From: an uncultured Clostridia bacterium
GTDB taxonomy: Bacteria > Bacillota > Clostridia > Peptostreptococcales > Anaerovoracaceae
Assembly: GCA_937915045.1 (NCBI GenBank)
Contig: CALDNM010000001.1
Location: 1 to 35,398 of the forward strand
Direction of reading: 5' to 3'
Length of the DNA stretch: 35,398 bases
Shown here: positions 8 through 32,543 of the stretch, one piece after another
Layout of the letters: the number at the start of each line of letters is the position of its first letter
How positions within the stretch are numbered: position 1 is the first letter of the stretch
The notes under the pieces: generated by a model
Told to the model about the DNA's origin: nothing
The model's input: the letters and a program-made list of their open reading frames with translations, nothing else
The model's database searches: none
Position numbers and translations under genes: made by a program

Positions 8-844
8 TTGGCAAAGCGAGCCCTTGAAATCTGTCGCACTTATAAAAAGAAAATCGATCGGCTGCTTCCCATGCTCGGGGAAGGAACACTTGAGCGCTGG
101 TCATCTAGTGGCGTCAAACGACATTACTGCAATATCACTCGCGATGGGAAACGGACTCGGATCTCTATTGACCCAGCTTGTGAAGGCTCAAACAAACTTA
201 TAGAAAACCTCACGAACAAAGCTATCCTGAAAAAGGCTGATAAAATCGTAACGGAAGATATTATCGCGCTGGAACGTTTTTTGAAGCACTTCAAAATTTG
301 TGATCCTGTCTCACTGAGGCGGACACTTAGCCAAGCATATGATTCTGACGATGTGGATATTTCCAAGTCTTTTATGAGCATCGATATCGACCCGAATGCC
401 TGGCGACATGCGTCGTATGAAAAAAATACTGCATTTGGCGAGAACCTGAAACATCATACCAGTACGCATGAAAAAGTGCGGTCAAAGTCTGAAGCCATGA
501 TATATGAAGCACTCATTGACCGCGATGTGGATTTTCGATATGAGTGTAAGCTGGTCCTTGAATCGAAGAACTCCTGTGGACAGATCGTATCGCGGCGTAC
601 TGTTTTTCCTGATTTTACTATACTGCGGACGTCGGACAGGCGTGAACTTATCTACGAGCATTTTGGAAGAATGGACGATCCCACATACATGCGTAAAGCG
701 CTTACAAAAATCGATGATTATATAAAGGCAGGGTATTACCCGGGGATCAATTTTATCATGACATGGGAAACAGCTGACCAGCCGTTCACATCAGCAAATG
801 CCGCAGAAGTCCTCGATTATTATTTGGGTAAAAAGGTGAAATAA
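8..844 (+). CDS. PD-(D/E)XK nuclease-fold protein, TnsA-N-terminal-like; possibly 5' partial
   Basis: 837-nt ORF. The listed start is TTG and the frame stays open back to position 2, so the true N-terminus may lie upstream of the window. The pattern RSKSEAMIYEAL ... FPDFTIL ... ELIYEHFG ... FIMTWE resembles the E/D/E core of restriction-endonuclease-like (TnsA_N type) proteins. No search run. Confidence 0.5.
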   Translation: MAKRALEICRTYKKKIDRLLPMLGEGTLERWSSSGVKRHYCNITRDGKRTRISIDPACEGSNKLIENLTNKAILKKADKIVTEDIIALERFLKHFKICDPVSLRRTLSQAYDSDDVDISKSFMSIDIDPNAWRHASYEKNTAFGENLKHHTSTHEKVRSKSEAMIYEALIDRDVDFRYECKLVLESKNSCGQIVSRRTVFPDFTILRTSDRRELIYEHFGRMDDPTYMRKALTKIDDYIKAGYYPGINFIMTWETADQPFTSANAAEVLDYYLGKKVK

Positions 845-880
845 ATCCGCATTCGTTTTAATACAGTAACATATGTACAT

Positions 881-940
881 ATACCGGATCAATTTGCGAT
901 ATACCGGATCCTTTTGTGCTATATCTGATCCTTTTGCTGC
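881..940. repeat. Three imperfect 20-bp tandem repeats (ATACCGGATCAATTTGCGAT / ATACCGGATCCTTTTGTGCT / ATATCTGATCCTTTTGCTGC)
   Basis: Read directly. The period is exactly 20 bp, beginning 37 bp after the stop of the nuclease-like gene. It is preceded by the palindrome ATGTACAT. Confidence 0.85.
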
Positions 941-1368
941 GACGTTTTTCTTCTTACTTTTATATGTCACAGGATCCAATGGGTTCCTTGAATCTGCAGA
1001 AAATTCACTGCGGCGTTTTCCCTTATCAGCGAAAAGTGTCACAGGGATTCCAAGGCTTGAAGGGCTCAGCCTCCCGAAAGAAAGGGAAATAACGCTTATC
1101 GAGTCGAAAAACATGATCACAATTGCTCCAAAAGGCATCCGAGTCGCAAACTTTTGTGACTTTCTTCGGCATTCCTATAAACGTCGCACCTGATGCGCAT
1201 TGGCAGAGCAACTTCGCCATTACAACTGTGTCTTTATAAATACGCCAGCACAATGCAAGCATTATAAGTATGACATCACAGCCGCAGTACTATTAATAAG
1301 CATGAGCACGAACTGGATGTTGCTTTATGCCGCTTCGCTTCTATTCTTCGTGTCAAAAGCGATCGATA

Positions 1369-2247: not shown

Positions 2248-2425
2248 GTCTCTTCTCCCTTTTATATGTCCCGTTTTCGCGATCACTGCTATCAGTTTTT
2301 GATCTTTTTCTATCAGCTAGTATATCACGACGTAATGATAACAGCCACGGCCCCTTATCGGGATCGCGGCTGGATCACACGAAACTGGATCGCGCAAAAT
2401 CAGGAATGCCTGTCGCGTCAACTTT

Positions 2426-3678
2426 TCACTCCGTGAACTTGACCTGGTCCACGGCTTTCCCGCCAGGCCTGTACACAGTCACTTTGAGTTCGTCCGCCGA
2501 GACATTATAGATCTCATAAGTGTTTTGATATGTCAGGAACTTCACCGCGTACGAAGGCACCGGGTCGCCTTTTTTGTAGTAATGAGTCGGCTTGTATCCG
2601 GAGTCGGCCATCATGTACGTCACGCCATTGATCGATTTCGTGCGCATGTAAAGATGCTGGTGCCCGCAGAGGGCGAGCTCCACGCCTGAACTCGCGAAAA
2701 CAGGAGACCAGTTCGCCCTGATCCTCTTGTATATCGGATTGCCGTCATCCACCGCGGGATATGCCGGGTGATGCATATAAGCGATCTTCCATTTCGCGTC
2801 CGTGCCATTAAGATCTTTCTTGAGCCACGCGTTCACAGACTTCACCATCGCGTTCCACTTCTTCCTGCCCATGCGTTCCCTGCGCTTATCCGAAAGCAGA
2901 TTGCTGTTCAGCGAAACAAAATGACAGTCTCCGTAATCAAACGAATATACTTCCTCTTCAATCCCCTTCGGCCCGTTCTCATCATCTTGAGATAGACACT
3001 CGGCACCACCGGCGTCTCATGATTCCCGGACGTCGTCATCATCGGGATCCTCGAAAAGACCGGCATCGCGTTATTGAAAAAAGCGTTCCAGTCTCTGATC
3101 TCCGTGCTGACATTTATGAGATCGCCCGTCATCAGCGAAAATTTGATCCCCGGCTCCCTCTTATAGGCGGCCGCGATATCATCGCCCCAGGCGGCATAAT
3201 CCTCATTCCGATCCACGAACTGCACATCTCCGAGTGACATAAAACTGAAATCTCCGCTTTCGATCCCCGTCGTGAACGTCCTCTTCGCTGTCCATTTGCT
3301 GCCCGCTCCGATAATGTAGTAATACTTCGTGTCCGCGGTGAGTTTTGTTATACGCGCGCTGTATCTGCAGTAATGCCCCTCGAGTGTGGTAGTTTTCTTC
3401 CCCTTCGTGAAGGAAGTCCATTTCCCGTCCTGATCGTAGTTTTTAGCTGCCGCGTACTTCACGTACATCGTGCTTCCGCTGCCTTTCCAGTTCACGTCTT
3501 GTGTAGTCTTCGTATCCCCGGACCAGCTCAGCGTTATCTGCGAAGCCTTCGTCTTCGGCGTCGAGGCCGCGTTCGCCTCGTTCGTGGCAGCATCCGCGCA
3601 GCCCGCTGTGACAAGAGCCGCGCAGATGACCGCCGCGATCATTACTGCCATTTTCAAATGTCTTTTTTCTTTGAACAT
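2426..3678 (-). pseudogene. Purple-acid-phosphatase-like metallophosphoesterase lipoprotein, interrupted by a 1-nt frameshift near 2975-2990
   Basis: Two adjacent ORFs (2908..3762 and 2426..2872) carry N- and C-terminal halves of one enzyme. Signal peptide plus lipobox (LVTAGC) follows the ATG at 3678. Motifs GDVQF, GDLIN and GNHE are in the upstream ORF; GHQH is in the downstream ORF. The downstream frame reads through upstream as ENGPKGIEEEVYSFDYGDCHFVSLNSNLLSDKRRERMGRKKW, so the frames switch around YLKMM/ENGP. Confidence 0.75.
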
Positions 3679-3694
3679 GATCTCGCCCTGTTTT

Positions 3695-5980
3695 TTATAT
3701 CCCGCTGAAACGCATAAGCCTGCTGCTGAATTTGAATTCGCCGACCCACAGATAATTCCCATCGTACGCGAGGAATGTCGGCACCGAAAGCGACCCGGCT
3801 CCCGCGATCTCTATGACATCCTTCCTTTCAGGATTGCTTCCCGGGATATCCGATGAATCGTAATAATCGCTGCCGTGTCCGAGATAGCACGAAACTTCTT
3901 TGCCCGCGACCGCGTCGTCGATGCTGTCCCACATAAGGACATAATAGTTGCTCGCGTCCGCGACCATAAGCCGGCCATCGCTTGTAATAACACATTCCGT
4001 CGCGTTGTTGAAGCTGCTGAACTCACCGCCTATCGTGTATCCATCGATAGTCCGCTTCGTGATATTCGAAAGATCACTGATATCGTATACGCCCACATGT
4101 TTGCACATACCTCCGTCCTCGCCTGTCCTCGCGACTGTCAGCACCTTGCCGCTGCTTGCGAGCGTGCCGCTGATACCATTGATCACAGCGACAGGCTTCG
4201 TGGTCTTGCCCGGTATCTTGCTGTAGATATACACCTTGTTCGTATTGCTGTCAGAAATGAAGAAATGATCGTCATCCATCGCGATGCCGTTTATCCCTTT
4301 CATTACTACTGACCCTATCTTGCCGCTGACAAGCGTGTTCCATTTCCTGCCTGTAGTCGGCAGCTTGTTCCAGATCATCAGACTGTGGTCAGTGGACACG
4401 ATAAGCTTCTGCCCTCTCAGGATCACGTCTGTCGGTGTCATGAGCGGATCCATGCTGTAGACAACGTCGGCCTTGACCGCCGAGGAGTCCGGGATATTCT
4501 TCCAGATCGAAAGAGTCAGATCGAACTCAGACACTGCCACCAGGCTCTTGCCGTCTGTCGCGACATTCGGGTTCTGGATCAGACCGTTCGTCAGAAGCGA
4601 ATTATTATTGATCGTCCCGCTCAGAGCGAACGAAGGATGTGCTGTTTTCTTCGTCGGCATACCCTTGAACGCTACTATTTTGTTGGCGTTATAGAGCGCC
4701 GCGTAAAGTCTCCCTTTCGCGTATAAGCACTGATTGAAGTCGCCTGTCGCGAAGTAGTAATATTTATTTTCCCCATTGTGCGATATCCCGTTTCCTATCG
4801 TAAGTTTCGGTTTTCTCAGAGCCGAAGCCGATTTCGGAAGCGATTTATATATGTAGAGCCGTCCTGAATGCATGAGCACAAGTTTGCCGTTCACTATGCA
4901 CCCGCCCGGCTGATCTCCGTCCATGGCGCACTGAAAATCCTGCGTATCGCTGCTGCTCTTCGGGAACGATGTCCAGACGCGGCAGCCTGTTCCGACAGAC
5001 ATATTGTGATCGCCTACCAGCAGATACTTTCCGTCAGACACGATCGTACGCGGTGTCCCGCCGGTCTCGATGACGAAATCAGCGCGCTGATCCGAGCTTT
5101 CCGGCATCGTATTCCACACTATCAGCTGCCCGGATCTCGTGTTTGTCACGACAAGTTTTTCTCCATTCGTCCATACCGCCCACGGCCACATTACGCAGTC
5201 ATCGCTGCCATCTCCGTACATCGAGATGGCGAAATCCGCTGCCTGCCCGCTGCTCGTCGGGATGGTGTTCCATACGAGTATCCTGTTATTGTGCGTATCC
5301 GCCACGTAGAGTCTGCCCTTCGCGGTCGCGACTCCGACAGGCCAGTTCATCTGCGAAAGGCCGTAACCCGCATTACTGCTTTTGAACCCCGTCTGTCCAA
5401 GGACTACCGACGGCGCTGCTGATTTGCTCGTCGGGATCTTATCGTAGATCAGGACGCGGTTGTTCCAGCTGTCGCACACAAAGAATCTCGTCCCGTCCGT
5501 GGCGATGCCGTTTGGATGATTGTAAGTAGTCGCGTTTTTCGCTTTGTTGATCCCGAAGCTGGAAAGCGCCAGATCGGCGTTCTGCCCGTTCGTGAAAGAA
5601 GACGTCACGTTTCCGGGCGCCACAGGGTAAGAGTTATTTTTATTTACAGTAACGGTGTATTTTGTATAGTCCTTCACGTGGACGTTACACGTGTATGTCT
5701 TCCCGCTCAGTTTCGCGCGGACTTTGGCCGTCCCGGCTCCGACAGCTGAGACAAGGCCTTTTTGGGTAACTGCAGCCACATTTTTATTCGATGATGACCA
5801 CTTCGGAGTCCTGCTCGTCCCTTCGAGTTCAAGCGGCTGACTGCCGCCGACATAGAGGTTTATTTTACTCGCGAGTGAAATAGACGCAGCGCTGACATTC
5901 GTACCGGCCGCGCAGGTGAAAACCAACGTCATGCATAACGCTAATATAGCAAATGCACTCATCTTCAGGATCTTTTTCAT
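3695..5980 (-). CDS. Secreted Big_2 (Ig-like) domain + NHL-repeat beta-propeller protein
   Basis: ATG at 5980 is preceded by GGGAGGA. The signal peptide ends in SAAS. There is a Big_2-like segment (KWSSSNKNVAAVTQKGLVSAVGAGTAKVRA). Repeated NHL-type motifs are present (CDSWNNRVLIYD, VADTHNNRILVWN, ISDSNTNKVYIYS). Confidence 0.8.
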   Translation of the reverse strand: MKKILKMSAFAILALCMTLVFTCAAGTNVSAASISLASKINLYVGGSQPLELEGTSRTPKWSSSNKNVAAVTQKGLVSAVGAGTAKVRAKLSGKTYTCNVHVKDYTKYTVTVNKNNSYPVAPGNVTSSFTNGQNADLALSSFGINKAKNATTYNHPNGIATDGTRFFVCDSWNNRVLIYDKIPTSKSAAPSVVLGQTGFKSSNAGYGLSQMNWPVGVATAKGRLYVADTHNNRILVWNTIPTSSGQAADFAISMYGDGSDDCVMWPWAVWTNGEKLVVTNTRSGQLIVWNTMPESSDQRADFVIETGGTPRTIVSDGKYLLVGDHNMSVGTGCRVWTSFPKSSSDTQDFQCAMDGDQPGGCIVNGKLVLMHSGRLYIYKSLPKSASALRKPKLTIGNGISHNGENKYYYFATGDFNQCLYAKGRLYAALYNANKIVAFKGMPTKKTAHPSFALSGTINNNSLLTNGLIQNPNVATDGKSLVAVSEFDLTLSIWKNIPDSSAVKADVVYSMDPLMTPTDVILRGQKLIVSTDHSLMIWNKLPTTGRKWNTLVSGKIGSVVMKGINGIAMDDDHFFISDSNTNKVYIYSKIPGKTTKPVAVINGISGTLASSGKVLTVARTGEDGGMCKHVGVYDISDLSNITKRTIDGYTIGGEFSSFNNATECVITSDGRLMVADASNYYVLMWDSIDDAVAGKEVSCYLGHGSDYYDSSDIPGSNPERKDVIEIAGAGSLSVPTFLAYDGNYLWVGEFKFSSRLMRFSGI

Positions 5981-6139: not shown

Positions 6140-6898
6140 CTATCTACTAGGATTTTTTATATAGAGCTCGCCCTCCGAATCATATCCGCTGAGCGTGTAA
6201 AGGATGCAGAGCTCGGATCTCTCATATGTAAAATCCGCCGTTACCGTTTTATCCGACATGCTCTCCGGCTCCTGGAAGCTGTATGTGAGCGTCCGTGTTT
6301 CGCCCGGGGAGAAGCCGTCCTCATTCGCGTAGCACGAGATCTTCTGCGGATCATGCGCGCTCGTATCTGAAATAAACGATCCCGAACCCGTAGTCACTAT
6401 AGTTTTCGTGCACTTATTATACAGCGTGAACGCGATTGAAGACTGCGCAGCCGCGTCAGCATTCAGCACGAACTTCGCTTCATAATACAAAGCGCTCGTA
6501 GCCTTAGCGTGGTCACTGATGCCTGCATAACTCCAGATAGTCTTTCCTCCGGAATATTTATATGCCTTCATTTTATAGTAATATGTTTTTCCGGCCGTCA
6601 GTTTTGTGCTTTTCCAGGAAGTCGTGCTTCCCTTTGTTATCGTTTTGACTTTCTTGTATGTCCCATTTTTCTTGGTCGCTCGATAGATCCTGTAACCCTT
6701 CGCCTTGGATACTTTCTTCCATTTGACCACTATCGAACTATTTGAATTCGCCAAAGCTGTCACGACAGGTGCCGCCGGTCTGCTTGCCGCCGATACATCT
6801 TTCGCGAGAAGCGGTGTCCACAGCATCGCCAGCGACACAACGACCGCCAGCATTACTGCACTGCCTGATCTTAGCCTTCTTCCCATTTTCTCGTTCAT
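6140..6898 (-). CDS. Secreted fibronectin-type-III domain protein
   Basis: ATG at 6898 with GAGGTGAGG RBS and a signal peptide. FN3-like segment: IVVKWKKVSKAKGYRIYRATKKNGTYKKV...GKTYYYKMKAY. Confidence 0.75.
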   Translation of the reverse strand: MNEKMGRRLRSGSAVMLAVVVSLAMLWTPLLAKDVSAASRPAAPVVTALANSNSSIVVKWKKVSKAKGYRIYRATKKNGTYKKVKTITKGSTTSWKSTKLTAGKTYYYKMKAYKYSGGKTIWSYAGISDHAKATSALYYEAKFVLNADAAAQSSIAFTLYNKCTKTIVTTGSGSFISDTSAHDPQKISCYANEDGFSPGETRTLTYSFQEPESMSDKTVTADFTYERSELCILYTLSGYDSEGELYIKNPSR

Positions 6899-7030: not shown

Positions 7031-7840
7031 TCAGCCCTCGTGCTGCTTGTTTCTCATTTCCTGCAGCGACTCTCTCAGATGCGCCCCGACTCTGATCACG
7101 CGGCGGCCCGATCTGTCCTCCGGAAATTTTCTGATGCATCTGGCGATATGCCGCTGGCGTCCGTTCAGATCCGCGGCCAGAGCGTCCGCGCGCTCGCGCA
7201 GTTCATCCTCGATCCCATTTAGTTTTGTCTCGAGCTGCTGAGGTTTATTGCTGATATTCTCATACGCCGCCTCTCCGCGCTCAGTGAATTCTTTTTCACT
7301 GTTTTCGATTTTCTGCAGTAATGCCGAAAGGCTCGCTTCGGTCAGTGCCATGTCCGCGCCGAGCATCCCTATGAACGCGAGCGCGACCGCCTCAAAGACC
7401 AGCGGAGGGACCTGCGACTGCACCCCAGACAGGACGGGGATCATCCAGCGAACGAGCGCGATACCGACAAGTCCGAAACAAACCGTTACTGGCAGGCAGA
7501 TACGGCCATTTATATTCAGCGGCATCTTGCTGTAATCCCACCACCTCGCGTGGAATCTCTTTTCGAGATAATACGACGTCCCGTACTCGGCGAACGCGCT
7601 GCCAACGGCGCAGATCAGGAACAGCTCCCACAGCGGCATGGACGCGGCAGTCAGCCAGTCCACACGCGTGAACAGAAACATCCCCACCACAACGCTGGCT
7701 CCGTAGATCGGGCAGATCGGCCCGAACAGGAAATCCCTGTTGGAAAAGTGTTTCTCCTTCGCCGTGCAATATATGGTTTCCCAGATCCAGCCCAGGAAAC
7801 TGAAGATTATAAAAAATGTTACGTACTGTGAAATAATCAT
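7031..7840 (-). CDS. CmpB-like ('putative ABC-transporter type IV', PF06541-like) membrane protein with coiled-coil C-terminal extension
   Basis: N-terminus FFIIFSFLGWIWETIYC...GPICPIYG is typical of that family. There are several TM segments. No SD, but a TATAAT lies 7 nt upstream of the ATG. Confidence 0.65.
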   Translation of the reverse strand: MIISQYVTFFIIFSFLGWIWETIYCTAKEKHFSNRDFLFGPICPIYGASVVVGMFLFTRVDWLTAASMPLWELFLICAVGSAFAEYGTSYYLEKRFHARWWDYSKMPLNINGRICLPVTVCFGLVGIALVRWMIPVLSGVQSQVPPLVFEAVALAFIGMLGADMALTEASLSALLQKIENSEKEFTERGEAAYENISNKPQQLETKLNGIEDELRERADALAADLNGRQRHIARCIRKFPEDRSGRRVIRVGAHLRESLQEMRNKQHEG

Positions 7841-8463: not shown

Positions 8464-8568
8464 TAGGGCCTCGCTTTCAAAATACCGGTAAAAACGCCTG
8501 AAAACAGCCATGATACGGAATTTCAAAGGATCAAATCGCGCAAACTCGTTGAATTGACTGACATTACT

Positions 8569-8725
8569 GCCGACTTCCGCCTCAGTGTCAACGATCCTGC
8601 CCATGCCGTAAAGCAGTTACAGCAATTCACGACTTGACGCCGACTTCTGCCGACTTCACACCGACTTCACACCGACTTGACGCCAACTTGACGCCGACTT
8701 CCGCCTCAGTGTCAACGATCCTGCC
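8569..8725. repeat. Seven tandem ~11-bp units (8630-8705; CGACTT[C/G]AC[A/G]C) bracketed by identical 33-nt direct repeats (8569-8601 and 8693-8725)
   Basis: Units: cgacttgacgc, cgacttctgc, cgacttcacac, cgacttcacac, cgacttgacgc, caacttgacgc, cgacttccgcc. The 33-mer GCCGACTTCCGCCTCAGTGTCAACGATCCTGCC occurs twice. Confidence 0.9.
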
Positions 8726-9327: not shown

Positions 9328-11862
9328 ATGAAGGCACTGGATGGAATTAAAGTACTGGACTTCACCCACGCGCACGGCGGTCCGCTCGCCACGATGTACC
9401 TCGCCGACTACGGAGCAGAGGTGGTCAAGGTCGAGCCTCCGGGAGGCGAAGACGGCAGATCGCTGCCTCCGATGAAAAATGGCGGAAGCGGATATTTCGC
9501 GTATCTGAACAGGGGCAAAAAAAGCGTCTGCGCCGATCTCGATTCCGAGGCGGATCGGGCGTTCATTCTCGAACTCGTGAAAGAGGCGGATGTCGTCTGT
9601 GAGAATTTCAGTTATGCAGTAATGGAACGGCACGGCCTCGGTTACGACGATCTGAAGAAGATCTCTCCCGGCATCATTTACGCGTCACTGTCCGGCCCCG
9701 GGAGGAGCGGAAGCAAAAAAGAAATGAAGCAGATGGACGAGCAGATCTCCGCGCTTTCCGGAATGCTTGAGCGAACGGGCTACCCGGACAGTCCGCCTGT
9801 GGAACTCGGCATACAGCTCAGCTGTCAGACCGGCGCTGTCTATCTCGTCATGGCGATCATGCTCGCGCTGATCCACCGCAGGGAAACCGGCGAAGGTCAG
9901 ATGATAGATATTTCAATGGTCGATTCGATGGTCTCGATCATCGAGGGCACATGCGTCACCTACGCGCTCACCGGAGAGATCTATCCGAGGAGCGGGAATT
10001 CGCAGTTCTCGATCTCGCCTTACGATACCTTCAATATGAAGAACGGCGACGCCGCGGTGGCTGTCTGCACCGACGCGCAGTGGCAGAAATTCCTCGGCGG
10101 TCTTAAGATAGATGACATCGCCGCGAACGAAAAATATGCCAGCAATGAGCAGCGCGGTCTCGAGTACGACAACGGCCTGCGGGCAGAGCTTGCGGATCGG
10201 ATAAAGGATCTCGATCTTGACAGTTTCATGACGTCGATGCACGACAACGGCATCGCCTCAAGTCAGGTCTGCAGCGTTTACGACACGATGCGATCGGAGC
10301 AGATAAAAGAGCGCCGCATGCTGACCGAAGTCGATGATAAAAATGTCGGCAAAGTAGTAATGCCTAGCCGCGCGATCAAGTTCGGATCGGACACTGTCGG
10401 CAAGCCTTCGGGTTCAGGTCAGGATACCGAGCTATCGGGCTCAAGTCAGAGCACCGGACTTTCCAGTTCACCCGCGCTCGGGCAGGACACGGAATACTTC
10501 AGGAATATGATGCACACGCCGGAGCATATGGAGATGGCGGCCAGGATGGAGAGTGACGCAGCGAGCAAAAACGCGCAGGTATCAGGCGGCCCTGGCTCGA
10601 GCGGCGGTGGCGCTTCAGCATCCACTGGCGACGGCGCTTCGACAGGCACTGGCAGCGGCGATCCCGTGACATCCGGCAATCGAAAGATACTCGATGGCAT
10701 GACGGTCATCGATTTCACGCAGGCTTACAGCGGACCTTTTTCCACTATGCAGCTTGCGGATTTTGGCGCGAAGGTCATCAAGCTCGAACGATGCGGCACC
10801 GGCGATCAGTCACGCGAATGGTCACCGTTCCGCAAAGGTTACAGCGGTTACTACGCGGCGATAAACAGAAATAAACTCGGCATGACGCTCGACCTCAAAT
10901 CGAAGGAAGGTCTCGAGATCGCGAAAAAACTCATCGCGAAAGCAGACGTCATTACTGAGAATTTCAAGGTCGGAACGATGGAAAAGCTGGGGCTCGGTTA
11001 CGACGAAGTGAAGAAGATCAACCCATCGATAATCTACGCGTCGATCTCCGGATTCGGCCAGAGCGGGCCGCTGAAGGACCGGCCGGCTTACGATAATGTG
11101 ATCCAGGCGATGTCGGGGATCCAGGACATGACCGGGTTCCCGGATGAGCAGGCGGTGAGGTGCGGTTCGTCGATCGGCGACAATTACACCGGGCTCGTCT
11201 CGTCGATGGCGATCCTCATGGCTTACTGGAAAAAGCTGAACACCGGCGAAGGCGAACGCGTCGACGTCGCGATGCTCGACGCGCTGTTCGCGATGATGGA
11301 ATATCACATAATCAGCAAGACGCTGCTCGGCGAAGAGCACGTCAGAAGCGGCAACAGCGAAAAGGATTTCCTCGTCCCGTATGATCTTTACGAGTGCGCG
11401 GACGGATATTTCTCGGTCGGCGTTCGCGGCGATGAGCAGTGGAAAGCGTTTTGTGACGCTGTTGGTCTGGACTCGCTCCGTGACCCGCGTTTTGGCAGTA
11501 ACGATTCCCGCCGCGAAAATTTCGATGATCTCACTTCGATCATTTCGGGGTGGATAAAGAGTCGGAAGAAGGCCGAACTCACGGACCTCTTCACCGGCGC
11601 GGGCATCCCGAGCTCCCCTCTCTACGATGTAATGGATATCATGGATGACGAGCACACGAGGGAACGCGGCATGATAGTCACGATCGATGACCCGGGTCTC
11701 GGCCCTTACGAAGCCATCGCCAATCCGATGAAACTCGAAAAAGCCGGCGCCTCGTATTCCAAAGGCGCGCCGCTCCTCGGCGAAGACAACGAAAAGATCC
11801 TCAAGGAACTCGGCTGCATCGCCGATGAGATCACTGATCTCGCGCGCCGCGGGGTGATCTAA
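9328..11862 (+). CDS. Tandem fusion of two family-III (CaiB/BaiF-type) CoA-transferase modules joined by a low-complexity linker
   Basis: GAGGAG RBS. Module 1 begins LDGIKVLDFTHAHGGPLATMYLADYGAEVVKVEPP. Module 2 begins LDGMTVIDFTQAYSGPFSTMQLADFGAKVIKLER. Module 2 has the canonical Asp motif AYDNVIQAMSG; module 1 has MDEQISALSG. An S/G/T/D-rich linker is encoded at about 10390-10690. Confidence 0.85.
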   Translation: MKALDGIKVLDFTHAHGGPLATMYLADYGAEVVKVEPPGGEDGRSLPPMKNGGSGYFAYLNRGKKSVCADLDSEADRAFILELVKEADVVCENFSYAVMERHGLGYDDLKKISPGIIYASLSGPGRSGSKKEMKQMDEQISALSGMLERTGYPDSPPVELGIQLSCQTGAVYLVMAIMLALIHRRETGEGQMIDISMVDSMVSIIEGTCVTYALTGEIYPRSGNSQFSISPYDTFNMKNGDAAVAVCTDAQWQKFLGGLKIDDIAANEKYASNEQRGLEYDNGLRAELADRIKDLDLDSFMTSMHDNGIASSQVCSVYDTMRSEQIKERRMLTEVDDKNVGKVVMPSRAIKFGSDTVGKPSGSGQDTELSGSSQSTGLSSSPALGQDTEYFRNMMHTPEHMEMAARMESDAASKNAQVSGGPGSSGGGASASTGDGASTGTGSGDPVTSGNRKILDGMTVIDFTQAYSGPFSTMQLADFGAKVIKLERCGTGDQSREWSPFRKGYSGYYAAINRNKLGMTLDLKSKEGLEIAKKLIAKADVITENFKVGTMEKLGLGYDEVKKINPSIIYASISGFGQSGPLKDRPAYDNVIQAMSGIQDMTGFPDEQAVRCGSSIGDNYTGLVSSMAILMAYWKKLNTGEGERVDVAMLDALFAMMEYHIISKTLLGEEHVRSGNSEKDFLVPYDLYECADGYFSVGVRGDEQWKAFCDAVGLDSLRDPRFGSNDSRRENFDDLTSIISGWIKSRKKAELTDLFTGAGIPSSPLYDVMDIMDDEHTRERGMIVTIDDPGLGPYEAIANPMKLEKAGASYSKGAPLLGEDNEKILKELGCIADEITDLARRGVI

Positions 11863-20458: not shown

Positions 20459-21622
20459 TTATTTGTAAGCGTTTTTGTAAATCGTCAGATAGTCCTCATC
20501 CGAGAGCGTGATCGGGTCTGCAGTAATGTCCCCTCCCAGCACTTCGCGGAGTTTCGCGGGATACAGTTCAAGTTCTTCCGCGGTAATGCCTTCGTCGCTC
20601 ATTTTGAGATCGGCGCAGCCGGCATCTTCTATGAGTTTGTCGAGCGCGCTCACGAAATCCTTCCCGCTCTTCGGCTCTTTCACACCCATAGCTTTTGCCA
20701 TCTTCATCATCTGCTCTTCGCACGCTTTTCTCTCAGCCAGGAAATCGTAATACGCGTGCGATGTCTCTATGAGCCCCGCTCCGTGTACGAGCTCAGGATG
20801 GAAGCTCCCCATAGTATGCTCGATCCTGTGACCGGAAGTGCACATCATATAATACGCGGCGAATGTATTGGCGAGCGCCATGTACGCGCGCGCTTCTTTA
20901 TCGCTCCCGTCCTTCACCGCGTGCGGCAGATATTTCGCGACATATTCGATCGTCTTGAGCGCGAACATCTCCGCCATCGGATGGACGTTCTTGTTTATGA
21001 CCGTTTCCGACGCGTGGAAAAACGCGTCCATGCCCTGATACGCGGTGAGCCGCGGCGGCACTGTCATCATGAGGTCGCTGTCGACAACTGAGATCGTCGG
21101 GAACATCGACGGGAAAAAGATCGCTGTTTTTTCATTCATTACATCATCCGAAATGACAGCCCCCGCGTCAGCCTCGCTCCCGGTGCCGGCCGATGTGGTG
21201 ATCGCGACGATCGGAAGCGCGTCATTTTCCGCCCGCTTCTTTCCGCCCTTCGCGCTGAAGGAATAATCCCAGAGATCACCATCGTTCGCCGCCATGAGCG
21301 CGATGCATTTGCTGCAGTCCATGACCGACCCGCCGCCAAGCGCGACGATAAAGTCACAATCATTTTCACGCATCATCGCGGCACCGTCCATTACATTATC
21401 CCTCGTCGGGTTCGGCCTTACTTCATCGAATAGAAGATGATCCACCCCCGCCTGATCGAGCTCTTTCTCGACCCTCTCGAGGTAACCGTATTTTTTCGTC
21501 GAGCTCCCGTTCGAAGTCGCGATCAGCGCCTTCCTGCCAGGCAGTTTTTTCTTATGAAGCTCATTTAATTTGCCCGGGCCGAAGAGTATCTTCGTCGGCA
21601 TATCAAAATCAAAATAGTACAT
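20459..21622 (-). CDS. Iron-containing (group III) alcohol dehydrogenase
   Basis: ATG at 21622 with AAGGAG RBS. GGGSVMDCSK motif and conserved His-rich C-terminal half. Confidence 0.88.
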   Translation of the reverse strand: MYYFDFDMPTKILFGPGKLNELHKKKLPGRKALIATSNGSSTKKYGYLERVEKELDQAGVDHLLFDEVRPNPTRDNVMDGAAMMRENDCDFIVALGGGSVMDCSKCIALMAANDGDLWDYSFSAKGGKKRAENDALPIVAITTSAGTGSEADAGAVISDDVMNEKTAIFFPSMFPTISVVDSDLMMTVPPRLTAYQGMDAFFHASETVINKNVHPMAEMFALKTIEYVAKYLPHAVKDGSDKEARAYMALANTFAAYYMMCTSGHRIEHTMGSFHPELVHGAGLIETSHAYYDFLAERKACEEQMMKMAKAMGVKEPKSGKDFVSALDKLIEDAGCADLKMSDEGITAEELELYPAKLREVLGGDITADPITLSDEDYLTIYKNAYK

Positions 21623-25082: not shown

Positions 25083-25095
25083 GATACTTCACCTC

Positions 25096-26683: not shown

Positions 26684-26710
26684 TTGACTTTAAAAATGCT
26701 ATTCTATAAT
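26684..26710 (+). promoter_or_regulatory. Candidate promoter of the 577-aa HTH gene
   Basis: TTGACT (26684-26689) and TATAAT (26705-26710), but the spacer is only 15 nt. Confidence 0.35.
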
Positions 26711-26762
26711 CAAATTAGATTTTTCTCGATTTCTAAAATAAATATCAGGAAAGGGTGATGAA

Positions 26763-28496
26763 ATGGACTTTGCGCTGATACTGAACCAGTACATCGAGCA
26801 GCTTGACTGCTCGGCAAAAAACCTTGCTGCCGCCTCGGGTCTTTCGAGCGCGGTCATCAGCCGTTACCGGTCAGGCGAACGGCAGCCGGAACTAAACAGC
26901 ACGCAGGTAGAAAAACTGGTCACGGGGATCACATCACTTGCTCGTGAAAAAGACATTACTGCCATCACTCGTGAAACTGTTTTATCATCATTCGCGCTGG
27001 TCTTAGACAGCACGCAGTATGATTATCCGACGCTGGTGGCCAACCTCAATACCGCCATATCCGTTTTGGGGATCAACACGACGGAGCTCTCACGGGCGCT
27101 GAATTTCGACGCTTCATTTTTGTCACGGATCCGTTCCGGGCAGAGACGCCCTGCGGATACCGCTGCGTTCATAAAAGGAGTATGCGAATTTATTGTTCGA
27201 CGCTGCACGAAGGAAAAAGATCTGAGCATCATCGCCGATCTGACTGAGACCGATATAAGCGAGATCACGATAAACACAGTCCGGCTGCAAAAATTGTCAC
27301 AGTGGTTATCCTCCGGCATTACTGAGCCGCAGGACTATCTGGGTGATTTTCTGAAAGCGCTGGATGATTTCGATCTGGACGAATATATCCGCAGTATCCA
27401 TTTCGATGAACTGAAGGTGCCGACTATGCCGTTCCAGCTCCCGACCACAAAACGGTATTATGGCATCGAGGAAATGAAGCAGGGCGAACTTGATTTTTTC
27501 AAATCGACAGTACTGTCAAAATCAACGGAGCCGGTTTTCATGTGCAGCGATATGCCTATGGAAGATATGGCGGAAGACCTGGAGTTCGGAAAGAAATGGA
27601 TGTTTGCCATCGCTATGACTCTCAAGAAAGGACTGCATCTCAATATAATACACAACCTGGACCGTCCGCTTAAGGAAATGATGCTGGGGCTTCAAAGCTG
27701 GATCCCTATCTACATGACCGGGCAGGTCTCACCTTATTACCTCAAGGGAGTCCAAAACAATGTTTACTGCCACTTCAACTATGTATCGGGCACAGCAGCT
27801 CTTACCGGTGAATGCATCAACGGTTTTCACAACGACGGGAAATATTATCTGACCAATAACAAAGATGAAGTCGCTTACTACAAGAAAAAGACAGCAGGGC
27901 TTTTGTCTAAAGCCACGCCGCTGATTGGTATATACCGCAAAAATAATGAGACCGCCTTTAACGCTTTTTTAAATACCGACGCGATGACCAGCGGAGATCG
28001 TCACAATATTTTATCTTCGCTGCCGCTTTATACCATATCCGATAAGATACTCTCCGATATTTTAAAGCGTCATTTTCTGTTTGATATCGATGGAGAACGG
28101 ATACTTGCAGCGGTCAAAAAACAAAAAGAATGTACTGAAATACTTTTACAGGAGAATACTCTACTCGATGAGATCCCGGAATTATCAAAAGAAGAATTCA
28201 AGAAACATCCTATGATAGTATCACTTTCAAGTATTTTTTACGATAATGAGCTCGCTTACACTTATGATGAATATCTGGAGCATCTCGATCTCACGCGCAA
28301 GTATGCTGAAAGTCATGAAAATTATAATATACAGCTTGATAAAGAAATAGCTTTTCGAAATATCCAGATCACGATGCATAATAATAAATGGGTGATGCTC
28401 TCGAAGAATAAAGCTCCGGTCATCCACTTTGTCATACATCATCCGAAGATGATCGAAGCCTTCAATAATTTTTCAGCTCCAATAATCGAGTTATGA
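26763..28496 (+). CDS. Dual XRE-type HTH protein with large uncharacterised C-terminal domain
   Basis: Two HTH-like segments (SAKNLAAASGLSSAVISRYRSGERQP and NTTELSRALNFDASFLSRIRSGQRRP) are followed by about 430 aa that I cannot assign. Confidence 0.75.
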   Translation: MDFALILNQYIEQLDCSAKNLAAASGLSSAVISRYRSGERQPELNSTQVEKLVTGITSLAREKDITAITRETVLSSFALVLDSTQYDYPTLVANLNTAISVLGINTTELSRALNFDASFLSRIRSGQRRPADTAAFIKGVCEFIVRRCTKEKDLSIIADLTETDISEITINTVRLQKLSQWLSSGITEPQDYLGDFLKALDDFDLDEYIRSIHFDELKVPTMPFQLPTTKRYYGIEEMKQGELDFFKSTVLSKSTEPVFMCSDMPMEDMAEDLEFGKKWMFAIAMTLKKGLHLNIIHNLDRPLKEMMLGLQSWIPIYMTGQVSPYYLKGVQNNVYCHFNYVSGTAALTGECINGFHNDGKYYLTNNKDEVAYYKKKTAGLLSKATPLIGIYRKNNETAFNAFLNTDAMTSGDRHNILSSLPLYTISDKILSDILKRHFLFDIDGERILAAVKKQKECTEILLQENTLLDEIPELSKEEFKKHPMIVSLSSIFYDNELAYTYDEYLEHLDLTRKYAESHENYNIQLDKEIAFRNIQITMHNNKWVMLSKNKAPVIHFVIHHPKMIEAFNNFSAPIIEL

Positions 28497-30323: not shown

Positions 30324-31219
30324 TTTATCATCTCCATAAAAAGCTTTTCCAGATCCGGCTCCAGCGCGTCCATCCGCAAAGGGACTATCTTTTCGTTATA
30401 AAGGATATCGATGATCGTTTCCCCATTGCCGAGAGCTTTGCTTCCGGCAGCTATGACAGTATTTCTGTCCGCCCTGTACGGGCACCCGGCTTCGGCCAGC
30501 GCGGCAGCAAAGCGTTTCGTTTCATCGGCAGATCCGAATTCGACGGCGATCTCATTCGTGCGATGGCTGTTTTCAAGTTCATCGATCTGTCCGCACATCA
30601 CTATATGCCCATCATGCAGTAACGCGACTCTGTCACAAATTTTTTCAACATCCGACAGTATATGCGTCGAGAAGATAACGGTAGTATCCCCTCCGAGTCC
30701 TCTTATTATATCGAGGATATCTTTCCTGCCCGACGGATCCAGCGCGCTGGTCGGTTCATCGCAGATGAGGATGTCCGGTTTTGTCAGTAATGCCTGAGCT
30801 ATGCCGAGACGCTGCTTCATGCCTCTTGAATAATTCGAAACGCGGGTCTTCGCGTTCTCGATCCCGACGAGCTTCAGCAGTTCATCGATCCGTGGCTTCA
30901 GGATATCCTTGTCGATCCCGCCTATCCCGCCGCAGAGCGTCATATATTCTCTCGCGTTCATGTCCCCGTAAAATGAAGGCACATCCGGCAGATATCCAAC
31001 AGCCGCGCGGCTCCTTGAAGCATCCTCTCCGAAAATTTCTATACTACCGCTGTCCTTTGGCATAAGCCCCAGTATGATCTTCATAGTAGTCGTTTTCCCG
31101 GCCCCGTTCTCGCCGACCAGTCCAAAGACCGACCCGGCGGGCACACTGAGATCCATGTGATCCAGCACGCGATGAGTACCGAAGGTCTTCGTAAGGCCTT
31201 TTATTTCTATGGCATTCAT
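30320..31219 (-). CDS. ABC transporter ATP-binding protein
   Basis: ATG at 31219 overlaps the upstream TGA. Walker A GENGAGKTT, signature YSRGMKQR, Walker B ILICDEP. Confidence 0.9.
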   Translation of the reverse strand: MNAIEIKGLTKTFGTHRVLDHMDLSVPAGSVFGLVGENGAGKTTTMKIILGLMPKDSGSIEIFGEDASRSRAAVGYLPDVPSFYGDMNAREYMTLCGGIGGIDKDILKPRIDELLKLVGIENAKTRVSNYSRGMKQRLGIAQALLTKPDILICDEPTSALDPSGRKDILDIIRGLGGDTTVIFSTHILSDVEKICDRVALLHDGHIVMCGQIDELENSHRTNEIAVEFGSADETKRFAAALAEAGCPYRADRNTVIAAGSKALGNGETIIDILYNEKIVPLRMDALEPDLEKLFMEMIK

Positions 31220-31419
31220 CACTCTTCACCTCTGCCGAAGACAAAATAGATCACCGGGCCGATTATCGAAACACAAAGAACGACGATCACCCATACAACT
31301 TTGTTCCCGAAGCGATAACGCGGATGCCTCAGCACATGTACAAGTGCCGTGACCGCCAGTACAAGCTGAAGGATCAGCAGCGGTATCAGGAATGGAAAAT
31401 ACTCGCTTGAAATACCCAT
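31219..31419 (-). CDS. PLDc_N-domain small membrane protein
   Basis: AGGAGG RBS. Two TM segments with W.I.V......GP..Y...GR, typical of PLD-nuclease-N-terminal-domain proteins. Confidence 0.7.
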   Translation of the reverse strand: MGISSEYFPFLIPLLILQLVLAVTALVHVLRHPRYRFGNKVVWVIVVLCVSIIGPVIYFVFGRGEE

Positions 31420-31421
31420 GA

Positions 31422-32543
31422 TCAGTCCTCCTTTAATTTACTGAGCCTGACTGTGATGTCTTCGAATTCCTTCATCCCTGTCATGCCTGAAAAAGCCGGG
31501 TTCATGATGACGCTGTCAGCCATGCTGTCCTTCACCAGCTTTTCACCTCTCGGCGCGTCGCCTGAAAGATCCAGTGACTGTATCATTTTATCCAGAGTGT
31601 CAAAGTACTCGTTCCCGTGAAGACTGATCGGCCATTTGATATCACAGCAGATGTCTGTATATGTATCAAGCCTCTTCAGCGCGTCTTCCGCATCGCCTTT
31701 CCCTGCCAAATACACAGCCGTCGTAAGGAGATGTATCAGCACAGAGTTGAAATTGAGCGATCTTATTTTAAAAAGATCTATCATCCCGTCTGCCCATCTG
31801 ATATATTCATCCACTCTTTTCTCATCCTCTCCCGGTATGCAGATAAGCATATCGATGTCGTTGATGAAACAAATGAGATCCGTATATATCTCGCCCTGAA
31901 GCGCTTCCTTTGCTTTCTCGTTCTTGCCCAGCGCCGTATACGCTCTCGCGAGATAACTTGTCCTGGAATTCGCGCTGAACGGGTCCGATACATCATCACT
32001 CAGAAGATCGACCACATCCGAAAATCTATTTTCCATCATGTATGTCATCGCGAGAACTGATCCCGCCTGTCTGCTGAGTTTCAGATCATCACTTTCCGCC
32101 ATTATCCTCCTGCACATATCGGCGATATACTTTATGGCCTCCGATGTTTTATCCGGCGTGCCAGCCAAATTGCAGTGATTGAGCAGAAGCAGACTCATCT
32201 GCATGAGCAGCGGGAAACACGAATAATATTTCTTTACTGTCTCATCGATCCGCTTGAACACCACATCGAATTCCTCATCAGCGAATTCATCGCTCAGTTC
32301 TCTGTACAGTTCTCTGATATCCGCTGTCGTCATCTGCGGCGAATAGTTCATGAGATCATCTATGCTGATATTGAAGTAGGCCGCCAGCTGAGGCAGTAAT
32401 GTCACATCGGGATAGCTCATCCCTTTTTCCCATTTGGATACCGCTGCTTTTGACACTCCGACAAAATCCGCCAGATCCTCCTGCGTTACCCCGCGCGACT
32501 TTCTCTCGCGGCTGATGATTTTTCCTATGTTTATTTCATTCAT
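31422..32543 (-). CDS. XRE-family HTH regulator with helical-repeat (TPR-like) C-terminal domain
   Basis: GGAGGTG RBS. RKSRGVTQEDLADFVGVSKAAVSKWEKGMSYPDVTLLPQLAAYFNISIDDL. Confidence 0.85.
   Translation of the reverse strand: MNEINIGKIISRERKSRGVTQEDLADFVGVSKAAVSKWEKGMSYPDVTLLPQLAAYFNISIDDLMNYSPQMTTADIRELYRELSDEFADEEFDVVFKRIDETVKKYYSCFPLLMQMSLLLLNHCNLAGTPDKTSEAIKYIADMCRRIMAESDDLKLSRQAGSVLAMTYMMENRFSDVVDLLSDDVSDPFSANSRTSYLARAYTALGKNEKAKEALQGEIYTDLICFINDIDMLICIPGEDEKRVDEYIRWADGMIDLFKIRSLNFNSVLIHLLTTAVYLAGKGDAEDALKRLDTYTDICCDIKWPISLHGNEYFDTLDKMIQSLDLSGDAPRGEKLVKDSMADSVIMNPAFSGMTGMKEFEDITVRLSKLKED

What the first reader, a model, noticed from the sequence alone, without database searches (positions are those of the whole stretch)
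122..32401. Hyper-abundant 9-mer CATTACTGC / GCAGTAATG scattered through genes in every frame and both orientations
The exact 9-mer occurs 15 times. Top-strand CATTACTGC starts at 122, 3640, 5371, 6851, 8562, 13398, 16115 and 26954. Top-strand GCAGTAATG starts at 3367, 7315, 9616, 12443, 17892, 20520 and 32393. A given 9-mer counted on both strands of 35,398 nt is expected about 0.3 times (2 x 35398 / 4^9). The copies are not parts of longer repeats, because the flanking bases show no consensus. They lie in 13 different genes plus one intergenic site (8562). They are translated in all frames: H-Y-C (122, 3367), A-V-M (3640, 6851, 9616, 13398, 16115), x-L-L (7315, 12443, 32393), I-T-A (17892, 20520, 26954) and S-N-A (5371). 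No peptide motif explains this, and codons such as TTA and GTA are recruited to spell the word. Orientation is balanced: 8:7 on the strands and 8:6 relative to transcription. Contiguous 8-of-9 variants also occur: ATTACTGC at 19860, 21704 and 29874; GCAGTAAT at 18765 and 25882; CATTACTG at 10950 and 27317; CAGTAATG at 30785. Thirteen of the 15 exact copies lie in the first 20.5 kb, and the AT-rich accessory segments are nearly devoid of them. This is how DNA uptake sequences (Neisseria DUS, Pasteurellaceae USS) behave. To my knowledge no such signal is established for Clostridia-type Firmicutes. Alternatives are a binding or loading site for a chromosome-organising or repair factor, or a product of a biased repair or gene-conversion process.
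Basis: partly seen in the sequence, partly recalled or inferred. Interest (0 to 1): 0.85.

Follow-up and report, generated by a model that had tools for sequence, protein, structure and literature searches.

The report
Hyper-abundant 9-base word in Clostridia
An uncultured Clostridia bacterium and its sister species carry the 9-base word CATTACTGC about 60 times more often than expected, written into genes on both strands even at the cost of rare codons and changed amino acids, which is how the DNA-uptake tags of Neisseria and Haemophilus behave and has not been described in Gram-positive bacteria.

Summary
CATTACTGC/GCAGTAATG occurs 15 times (8+, 7-) in 35.4 kb. Expected counts are 0.2 from dinucleotide shuffles, 0.76 from synonymous-codon shuffles, and 0.24 per 35.4 kb in 1.33 Mb of other Clostridia. 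It is the top 9-mer and lies in 13 genes, in all five stop-free frames, with no transcription-strand bias. Flanks carry almost no information; only G at -2 stands out weakly.

New evidence:
- A sister species (~94% nt identity) has 11 copies in 31.9 kb, three of them in DNA absent from the window.
- An Aminicella-like bacterium from the same samples has none in 22 kb.
- All five Ala-Val-Met tripeptides are spelled GCA GTA ATG, using rare codons.
- At two sites the word replaces family-consensus residues, and the nearest motif-free homologues carry one-base-off versions.
- About 14 kb of GC-poor (~40%), apparently acquired DNA has no copies.

Best reading (about 0.45): a DUS/USS-like self-DNA tag maintained by biased DNA import and recombination. 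Function, receptor and competence genes are untested because only about 58 kb of the lineage could be recovered. Rivals are a HIP1-like repair product, a Chi-like signal and a protein-binding site. Repeat-element and artefact explanations are excluded.

The parts
122..130 (+). Exact copy CATTACTGC; sense strand of ORF 8/71-844 (+), frame 0, His-Tyr-Cys
3367..3375 (-). Exact copy; sense strand of the frameshifted purple-acid-phosphatase gene (2429-3678, -), His-Tyr-Cys; conserved in the sister species
3640..3648 (+). Exact copy; antisense in the same phosphatase gene, read as GCA GTA ATG = Ala-Val-Met; conserved in the sister species
5371..5379 (+). Exact copy; antisense in the NHL/Big_2 surface-protein gene (3695-5998, -), A GCA GTA ATG CG = Ser-Ser-Asn-Ala where the family consensus is S-N-N-P. 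The 73%-identical motif-free homologue has GCAGTAAGG (Lys). Conserved in the sister species
6851..6859 (+). Exact copy; antisense in the fn3 protein gene (6140-6898, -), Ala-Val-Met; conserved in the sister species
7315..7323 (-). Exact copy; sense in the CmpB-like membrane-protein gene (7031-7840, -), Ala-Leu-Leu-Gln using rare TTA. The sister species has the one-off GCAGCAATG
8562..8570 (+). Exact copy; the only intergenic copy (between 7840 and 8857); conserved in the sister species, where it lies downstream of an EamA gene that the window lacks
9616..9624 (-). Exact copy; antisense in the double CoA-transferase gene (9328-11862, +), Ala-Val-Met where 41 of 57 homologues have Gly at the first residue. 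The 58%-identical motif-free homologue has GGAGTAATG. Conserved in the sister species
12443..12451 (-). Exact copy; sense in the DUF4125 gene (12339-12962, -), Ala-Leu-Leu-Leu. The sister species has the one-off GCAGTAACG
13398..13406 (+). Exact copy; antisense in the DUF4037 gene (12990-13925, -), Ala-Val-Met; conserved in the sister species
16115..16123 (+). Exact copy; antisense in the OYE/pyridine-nucleotide-disulphide oxidoreductase gene (14771-16906, -), Ala-Val-Met; conserved in the sister species
17892..17900 (-). Exact copy; sense in panC (17723-18580, -), Ala-Ile-Thr-Ala using rare ATT, in a segment that varies among 75 PanC homologues
20520..20528 (-). Exact copy; sense in the Fe-alcohol-dehydrogenase gene (20459-21622, -), Asp-Ile-Thr-Ala
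26954..26962 (+). Exact copy; sense in the 577-aa HTH protein gene (26763-28496, +), Asp-Ile-Thr-Ala; lies in an AT-rich segment
32393..32401 (-). Exact copy; sense in the XRE-type HTH_3 regulator gene (31422-32543, -), Thr-Leu-Leu-Pro

Best explanation
CATTACTGC/GCAGTAATG is a lineage-specific 'self-DNA' word of the DNA-uptake-sequence type (like Neisseria DUS and Pasteurellaceae USS). Inferred mechanism: a DNA-import or recombination step in this genus, most plausibly a DNA receptor of the transformation machinery, prefers double-stranded DNA carrying the word. Alleles that gain a better match are therefore imported and recombined between cells more often. The word then spreads by molecular drive through the long-resident genome, in either orientation and in any frame that lacks a stop codon, and decays by point mutation. 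SHOWN: the extreme, codon-independent enrichment; orientation neutrality; rare-codon and amino-acid cost; origin from one-off precursors; sharing by two species; absence from more distant relatives. INFERRED: that the selective agent is DNA uptake or transfer, and that a sequence-specific receptor exists.
For: (1) Density is 15 copies per 35.4 kb in the window and 11 per 31.9 kb in the sister species (about 0.3-0.4 per kb). That is of the same order as, though lower than, 1,471 USS in H. influenzae and 1,892 DUS in N. meningitidis (table in PMC2817400; genome sizes of about 1.8 and 2.2 Mb from my own knowledge). (2) Enrichment is about 60-fold over shuffles and over real Clostridia DNA, and 18-fold over a synonymous-codon null. 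(3) There is no polarity: 8:7 on the two strands, 8:6 relative to transcription, and 11:7 when sister-only sites are pooled, inside a window with monotonic GC skew and hence one replichore. A transcript-level role predicts a transcription-strand bias that is not seen, and a strongly polar signal is made unlikely. (4) All five stop-free frames are used, and the sixth would create TAA. (5) There is a DNA-level cost. All 5 Ala-Val-Met tripeptides in the GC-rich genes (window 71-23629) are spelled GCA GTA ATG although GCA is 13% of Ala codons and GTA 17% of Val codons. The rare codons ATT (9%), TTA (4%) and AGT (10%) are also recruited. AVM occurs about 4 times more often than amino-acid composition predicts (expectation computed by me from the counts). 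Findlay and Redfield report doubling of uptake-sequence tripeptides (PMC2817400). (6) At two sites the word replaces family-consensus residues: Gly to Ala in the CoA-transferase, and N and P to S and A in the NHL protein. The nearest motif-free homologues carry one-off words, GGAGTAATG and GCAGTAAGG. Copies therefore arose by different point changes at different positions, including transversions. (7) In PanC the copy sits in a poorly conserved segment, as reported for USS and DUS (PMC2817400). (8) The phylogenetic pattern fits. The word is shared by a sister species, with copies in DNA absent from the window. It is absent from an Aminicella-like relative in the same samples (0 in 22 kb) and from 80 other Clostridia loci. 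(9) There are no copies in 9.5 kb plus 4.4 kb of about 40% GC DNA, in a strain-specific island, or near the ars cluster, which is 79-81% identical to a cluster in an unrelated 42%-GC MAG. [quoted passage not shown] (10) Two intergenic copies in the sister species form the 5' arm of terminator-like hairpins just after stop codons. From my own knowledge, DUS and USS are often found in such positions.
Against: No functional data exist. The organism is known only from metagenome assemblies. No competence, pilus or receptor gene lies in the roughly 58 kb recovered, so the machinery is unverified. The literature held here describes sequence-specific uptake only for Neisseriaceae and Pasteurellaceae (PMC1939737 abstract), and from my own knowledge Gram-positive transformation is sequence-independent wherever it has been studied. 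Depletion in low-GC DNA is only suggestive (p=0.024, 0.08 and 0.11 at three GC cut-offs), and a 6.4-kb GC-rich stretch (20.6-26.9 kb) has no copy. Conservation between the two species (8 of 10 sites) is not above background (65.5% of all 9-mers; p=0.27). Two of the three sister-only copies are one duplicated module and are not independent. Density is 2-3 times lower than in the classical cases. No inverted motif pairs were seen.
Confidence: 0.45

Rival explanations
1. HIP1-like product of a sequence-specific modification and repair bias. A methyltransferase or nicking/repair enzyme recognises the word or its core. Mismatch correction is biased toward restoring it, so the word accumulates genome-wide without any role in DNA import.
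For: Cyanobacterial HIP words reach similar densities in all frames and are tied to cognate methyltransferases, with a methylation-dependent repair model proposed (PMC4390886). One-off variants here are concentrated at positions 1, 2, 7, 8 and 9, while the inner TTAC almost never varies. This resembles the end-biased deviations reported for HIP1. The commonest variants are transitions: CATTACTAC x5, CGTTACTGC x4, CATTACCGC x3. Like uptake, this mechanism would be orientation-neutral and would spare recently acquired DNA.
Against: The word is not palindromic, whereas every HIP is. From my own knowledge, a contiguous fully specified 9-bp asymmetric methyltransferase site would be unusual. The two inferred creation events are different transversions at different positions (G to C at position 2, and G to T at position 8 of GCAGTAATG), which a single-position VSP-type T:G repair cannot produce. 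No methyltransferase was found in core DNA of the lineage; the only one seen is in a strain-specific island (L102).
Confidence: 0.15
2. Chi-like or other recombination/nuclease-control signal. AddAB/RecBCD or a defence nuclease recognises the word as a mark of self DNA, and it is selected in the core genome.
For: Chi motifs are over-represented, occur about once per 5 kb and are enriched in core rather than acquired genes (PMC8022716). Those properties are also seen here. The pooled orientation of 11:7 leaves room for a weak bias.
Against: Chi is defined by polarity with the leading strand (PMC8022716). Here the split is 8:7 in the window and 11:7 pooled (two-sided p about 0.48 against 50:50). 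By my own binomial calculation, the probability of 11 or fewer of 18 is about 0.05 if 80% were co-oriented and about 0.14 if 75% were, and two of the 18 are one duplication. From my own knowledge, known Firmicute Chi sites are 5-7 nt and G-rich. A 60-fold enrichment with rare codons and amino-acid replacements goes far beyond what Chi shows.
Confidence: 0.1
3. Dense array of binding sites for a chromosome-organising, segregation or nucleoid-associated protein that reads double-stranded DNA without regard to orientation.
For: The signal acts on duplex DNA and shows no bias toward either the transcribed or the replication strand. It is lineage-specific, and the exact word is strongly preferred over its variants.
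Against: From my own knowledge, no known nucleoid or segregation protein (ParB/parS, Noc, SlmA, MatP, RacA, DnaA) uses about one exact non-palindromic 9-mer per 2-3 kb inside coding sequence. Such sites are few, palindromic or degenerate. Selection site by site would have to outweigh protein-level costs at hundreds of loci.
Confidence: 0.12
4. Remnants of a mobile or repeated element (MITE/REP-like, IS ends, integron or intron targets), or an assembly or contamination artefact.
For: Two intergenic copies in the sister species do belong to a locally duplicated module of about 80 nt.
Against: The 18 aligned sites share nothing beyond the 9-mer apart from a weak G at -2. Fourteen of the 15 lie in frame inside unrelated, intact protein-coding genes. 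The copies are reproduced in independent assemblies from several studies, including ENA ERZ922851, ERZ27283060 and ERZ4239753 and Logan ERR13763395, SRR29457779 and SRR8925750.
Confidence: 0.02

Closest known systems
DNA uptake sequence (DUS) of Neisseriaceae (core GCCGTCTGAA; dialects in Frye et al. 2013, PMC3630211)
   Same: A short, non-palindromic, exact word. It occurs at hundreds to thousands of copies per genome by extrapolation, in both orientations, inside genes and at terminators. It is shared by close relatives, absent from outsiders, and scarce in acquired DNA.
   Different: The sequence is unrelated and the phylum is different (Bacillota, Clostridia). Density is about 2-3 times lower. 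No inverted pairs were seen. 14 of 15 copies are in coding sequence, against 34.5% of DUS (PMC2817400). The ComP-type receptor and uptake preference are untested.
Uptake signal sequence (USS) of Pasteurellaceae (9-mer cores AAGTGCGGT and ACAAGCGGT)
   Same: A 9-bp core, mostly within ORFs (65% in H. influenzae; PMC2817400). All usable frames are occupied, the encoded tripeptides are inflated, copies sit at poorly conserved residues, and one-off variants are common.
   Different: No AT-rich flanking segments were detectable (only a weak G at -2). The sequence is unrelated, the host is Gram-positive, and function is untested.
Highly Iterated Palindrome HIP1 (GCGATCGC) of cyanobacteria
   Same: A hyper-abundant word in all frames, lineage-specific, whose origin is debated between repair/methylation and a role in transformation (PMC4390886; bioRxiv 10.1101/2024.09.10.611283).
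   Different: HIPs are palindromes containing methyltransferase sites. This word is asymmetric, and no cognate methyltransferase is known.
Chi and Chi-like sites (RecBCD/AddAB), and KOPS/SRS (FtsK/SpoIIIE)
   Same: Over-represented short words enriched in the core genome.
   Different: Those signals are strongly polarised with replication (PMC8022716; PMC3384302) and far less enriched. This word shows no significant polarity.

Membership tests
DNA uptake sequences (DUS/USS) | Exact short word present at roughly one per 1-3 kb, far above any compositional expectation | tested here: met
   15 in 35.4 kb and 11 in 31.9 kb, against 0.2-0.76 expected. The genome-wide count was not obtainable.
DNA uptake sequences (DUS/USS) | No polarity relative to replication or transcription | tested here: met
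   8:7 on the strands, 8:6 relative to transcription, 11:7 pooled; monotonic GC skew across the window. The sample is small.
DNA uptake sequences (DUS/USS) | Proteome footprint: all permissible frames used, encoded tripeptides inflated, copies at poorly conserved residues | tested here: met
   5 of 5 stop-free frames used; all 5 AVM tripeptides in the GC-rich genes spelled by the word; AVM about 4 times expected; consensus residues replaced at 2 sites; variable segment in PanC.
DNA uptake sequences (DUS/USS) | Shared by close relatives and absent from unrelated taxa | tested here: met
   The sister species carries it. The Aminicella-like relative and 80 Clostridia loci are at background.
DNA uptake sequences (DUS/USS) | Under-representation in recently acquired DNA | tested here: inconclusive
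   0.06 per kb where GC is below 44%, against 0.41 per kb elsewhere (p=0.024). The result weakens at other cut-offs (p=0.08 and 0.11). Not significant within the window alone.
DNA uptake sequences (DUS/USS) | Competent cells preferentially bind and take up DNA carrying the word | not testable with these tools
DNA uptake sequences (DUS/USS) | Genome encodes DNA-uptake machinery with a sequence-specific receptor (ComP minor pilin in Neisseria; ComN proposed in Pasteurellaceae, PMC12616744) | not testable with these tools
   Only about 58 kb of the lineage was retrieved. No com or pil gene is in it.
Chi / Chi-like | Strong co-orientation with the leading strand | tested here: not met
   11:7 pooled, with the leading strand inferred from gene orientation and GC skew. 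By my own binomial calculation P is about 0.05 under 80% polarity. The small sample means weak polarity is not excluded.
Chi / Chi-like | Recognition by RecBCD/AddAB that modulates nuclease activity | not testable with these tools
   No biochemical data are available.
HIP (highly iterated palindromes) | Palindromic word containing the site of a cognate methyltransferase | tested here: not met
   CATTACTGC is not its own reverse complement. No methyltransferase was found in core DNA of the lineage.
KOPS / SRS / AIMS | Skewed orientation pointing toward dif | tested here: not met
   8:7 within a window that lies on one replichore.
Interspersed repeat elements (REP/MITE/IS ends) | Conserved sequence extending beyond the core; mainly intergenic | tested here: not met
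   No flank consensus. 14 of 15 copies are in frame within genes.

The most novel reading that the evidence does not exclude
This is the first DNA uptake sequence in a Gram-positive bacterium (Bacillota, Clostridia; probably near Anaerovoracaceae or Lachnospiraceae). It would be a third, independent origin of sequence-specific DNA import. That implies a sequence-reading receptor, for example a ComG-type minor pilin or a surface DNA-binding protein, that arose recently, since an Aminicella-like relative lacks the word.
Probability: 0.4. Interest if true: 0.9.

Novelty: new variant of a known kind. Interest (0 to 1): 0.78.

Why it matters
Sequence-specific DNA uptake has been established in only two Gram-negative families for decades. 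Its origin, drive versus selection, is still debated. A young, genus-level, DUS-like word in an uncultured Clostridia lineage would show that such signals arise repeatedly and outside type IV pilus/ComP systems. It offers a case where motif-bearing and motif-free relatives co-occur, so the receptor could be sought by comparative genomics. It would also provide a ready k-mer marker for binning this lineage's DNA and for separating core from acquired DNA. If the word is instead repair-driven or a binding site, an asymmetric 9-mer that is forced into coding sequence at the expense of conserved residues would still be an undescribed genome-shaping process.

Tried and rejected
- The GTDB scan with PanB found no close relative. 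None of the 80 loci had the word or any other hyper-abundant 9-mer. That used the only genome-contig scan, so the source MAG could not be fetched.
- Full-text searches for the 9-mer returned only primer sequences.
- The look-up of window:1369-2286 failed because of a wrong start codon. I worked around this with cluster-member ids.
- P0344 was expected to lie on a 16.5-kb contig of the window species but returned only 2-kb contigs.
- P0362, a gamble on a 60.8-kb MAG contig, proved to be an unrelated 42%-GC organism sharing only the ars cluster. This is useful only as evidence of horizontal transfer.
- The conservation test between the two species was not significant (8 of 10 against a 65.5% background). 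The species are too close for this test.
- A search for a motif 'dialect' in the Aminicella-like relative found that its ten one-off words are nearly all different, with one palindromic site counted on both strands.
- Rfam and tRNA scans of the window found nothing.
- I did not run the JGI metagenome scan. Any allowed pattern (at least 14 specified bases, or two copies within 600 nt) would, by my own estimate, give hundreds to thousands of chance hits against a handful of true ones, and the lineage appears in JGI only on 1-2 kb contigs.
- An RNA-level role (for example a MazF-type cleavage site) is unlikely because there is no transcription-strand bias.

Full report
**Observation.** CATTACTGC/GCAGTAATG occurs at exactly the 15 stated positions, 8 on the + strand and 7 on the - strand.
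- Dinucleotide shuffles give 0.20 copies (largest 2).
- Markov models of order 0-4 give 0.2-1.25.
- Shuffling synonymous codons among all genes preserves every protein and the codon usage, including the codons already recruited by the word. That null gives 0.76 copies in CDS (largest 4 in 1000) against 14 observed.
- Family-wise, the most frequent 9-mer of any kind in 200 such shuffles reached 11 at most (mean 5.9), against 14 observed.
- The word is the top 9-mer of the window.
- The one frame never used would read xxG CAG TAA TGx and so contains a stop codon.
- Aligned flanks of 18 sites show no longer repeat. Only G at -2 (11/18) stands out, and it does not survive correction.

Two claims need tempering. 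One-mismatch neighbours (25) exceed shuffles (7.1) but are only about 1.5-2.5 times the rate in real Clostridia DNA. Depletion in AT-rich segments is not significant within the window alone.

**Where the window comes from.** The window is ordinary chromosomal DNA of an uncultured member of the Clostridia.
- It carries the panBCD genes, an OYE-type reductase, a double family-III CoA-transferase, Fe-ADH, surface proteins and XRE regulators.
- There are no RNA genes.
- The same sequence appears in independent assemblies of fermentation and other metagenomes.
- The best named relatives are Lachnospiraceae-like for PanB (79% aa) and Aminicella lysinilytica, family Anaerovoracaceae, for the NHL protein (73% aa). 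The class is secure but the family is not.
- GC skew is monotonic across the window and most genes are on the - strand. The window therefore lies on one replichore, with the - strand as the probable leading strand.

**Evidence from related sequences.** Using cluster-member ids, I rebuilt a 31.9-kb contig of a sister species. It is 94% identical over the 15.3 kb that aligns, or 91-96% block by block.
- The contig carries 11 copies, and the word is again the top 9-mer.
- Eight of the ten alignable window sites are identical in the sister. The other two differ by a single T/C transition, with the window copy perfect. Because 65.5% of all 9-mers are conserved between these genomes, this does not demonstrate constraint (p=0.27).
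- Three copies lie in roughly 6 kb of GC-rich DNA that the window lacks, so the enrichment is not a property of one locus.
- Two of those three are intergenic. They sit 18-19 nt after stop codons and form the 5' arm of terminator-like hairpins. They belong to one locally duplicated module, so they count as one event.
- The last 9.5 kb of the sister contig and a further 4.4 kb (L113), both about 40% GC, have no copy. A strain-specific defence-like island has none.
- The ars cluster next to the window's right end is 79-81% identical to one in an unrelated 42%-GC MAG that has no copies in 20 kb.
- Pooled over 57.7 kb of non-redundant lineage DNA, density is 0.41 per kb where GC is at least 44% and 0.06 per kb below that (p=0.024). 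The contrast weakens at other thresholds.
- An Aminicella-like bacterium present in the same samples, with a 73%-identical NHL protein, has zero copies in 22 kb that include housekeeping genes, and it has no alternative hyper-abundant word.
- None of the 80 GTDB loci has the word above background.

The word is therefore specific to a narrow lineage, roughly genus level.

**The pressure acts on the DNA, not the protein.**
- In the GC-rich genes all five Ala-Val-Met tripeptides are spelled GCA GTA ATG. GCA is only 13% of Ala codons and GTA 17% of Val codons, which gives about 0.02 per tripeptide by chance.
- ATT (9% of Ile codons), TTA (4% of Leu) and AGT (10% of Ser) are likewise recruited.
- AVM itself occurs about four times more often than amino-acid frequencies predict (my calculation).
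- In the CoA-transferase the copy encodes A-V-M where 41 of 57 homologues have Gly at the first residue.
- In the NHL protein it encodes S-S-N-A where the family consensus is S-N-N-P.
- The closest motif-free homologues carry one-off words at these positions: GGAGTAATG (Gly) and GCAGTAAGG (Lys). Single transversions at different positions therefore completed the word and changed the protein.
- In PanC the copy lies in a segment that varies freely among 75 homologues.

These are the signatures Findlay and Redfield described for USS and DUS: doubled tripeptide frequencies, location at poorly conserved residues, and absence from genes without homologues in relatives (PMC2817400).

**Interpretation.**
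- The lack of any transcription-strand bias argues against an RNA-level role.
- The lack of flank conservation, together with in-frame placement in 13 unrelated genes, rules out a repeat element. Reproduction in independent assemblies rules out an artefact.
- A Chi- or KOPS-type signal is defined by polarity with replication (PMC8022716; PMC3384302). Here the split is 8:7, or 11:7 pooled, which is compatible with no bias and only marginally compatible with strong polarity.
- The known class that combines about one exact asymmetric word per 1-3 kb, both orientations, all frames, a proteome cost, sharing among close relatives and scarcity in acquired DNA is the DNA uptake sequence. I therefore take a DUS/USS-like self-DNA tag, maintained by biased import and recombination, as the best explanation, with confidence about 0.45.
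- What is shown is the genomic behaviour. What is inferred is the agent. No competence gene, receptor or uptake datum is available, and from my own knowledge Gram-positive transformation is sequence-independent wherever it has been studied.
- The main rival is a HIP1-like modification/repair drive (PMC4390886). The end-biased, transition-rich one-off variants favour it. The word's asymmetry, and the varied base changes that created copies, count against it.
- A dense array of protein-binding sites cannot be excluded, but it has no known precedent.

**Comparison and novelty.** The word is unrelated in sequence to any DUS dialect or USS type. It lies in a different phylum and is 2-3 times less dense. 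It shows no inverted pairs and no AT-rich flanks. Membership of the uptake-sequence class cannot be claimed because its two defining functional features, preferential uptake and a receptor, were not testable. All the genomic features that could be tested were met, except the core-versus-acquired contrast, which was inconclusive. Searches of the held literature found no report of this word or of any uptake sequence in Firmicutes. I rate it a new variant of a known kind, with high interest: the finding is robust, unexpected for this phylum and directly testable once the full MAGs are examined.

**Limits.** Only about 58 kb of lineage DNA could be assembled from the tools' quotas. The genome-wide count, replichore analysis, the competence and methyltransferase inventory and methylation state remain to be done (see next steps).

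Noticed in passing
window 2429-3678 (- strand): The purple-acid-phosphatase gene is split by a frameshift near 2956-2980. The sister's intact 420-aa protein aligns at 97% in two frames. So ORFs 2908-3678 and 2426-2872 are one pseudogene, or there is an assembly indel.
   Followed up: yes
window 1780-8294 versus 8771-16835: Identity to the sister species is mosaic: 96.3% over the first block and 91-92.5% over the adjacent blocks. This suggests a recent homologous exchange between the two species.
   Followed up: partly
window 7841-8856; L083 1046-1921: The sister species has an EamA-family transporter gene here. The window has about 1 kb of non-coding DNA and no trace of the protein by tblastn, so this is an insertion/deletion difference.
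   Followed up: partly
L100 17299-17345 and 17955-18000: Two intergenic motif copies lie 18-19 nt after stop codons. Each forms the 5' arm of a hairpin followed by a T run (-17.3 and -13 kcal/mol; z-scores -4.05 and -1.60 against shuffles, so only the first is clearly better than chance). Both sit inside a locally duplicated module of about 80 nt (GCAGTAATGGCCGGGG...TTTTCGGCTTCACTTC).
   Followed up: partly
L102 16668-20576: A strain-specific island in one sister-species strain encodes a T5orf172/ResIII helicase-like protein and an Eco57I-type N6 methyltransferase (a type IIG RM or defence module). It replaces the small genes found in other strains and carries no motif copy.
   Followed up: no
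L086 1-2700 (just beyond window position 35398); L119 9928-12026: An ArsR-ArsP-thioredoxin cluster adjoining the window's AT-rich right end is 79-81% identical at nucleotide level to one in an unrelated 42%-GC 'Eubacteriaceae' MAG (GCA_034927505.1). This points to horizontal acquisition of the low-GC segment.
   Followed up: partly
window 16887-17156: A PhdYeFM-type antitoxin gene, with a downstream partner ORF, sits between the reductase gene and panD. The sister-species contigs retrieved (L093-L098) all end within about 0.5 kb of this point, just beyond a 166-aa gene upstream of the reductase. This suggests a variable or repeated junction.
   Followed up: no
L088-L090: An Aminicella-like organism (46% GC) co-occurs in the same two metagenomes as the window organism. 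It carries a 73%-identical NHL/Big_2 surface protein next to a 2,422-aa RHS/YD-repeat protein, and it has no copy of the word.
   Followed up: partly
window 20600-26900: A 6.4-kb stretch has no copy although about half of it is GC-rich (rest of the Fe-ADH gene, an acetyltransferase, a beta-lactamase-family gene). The density of the word is therefore uneven even in apparently resident DNA.
   Followed up: no
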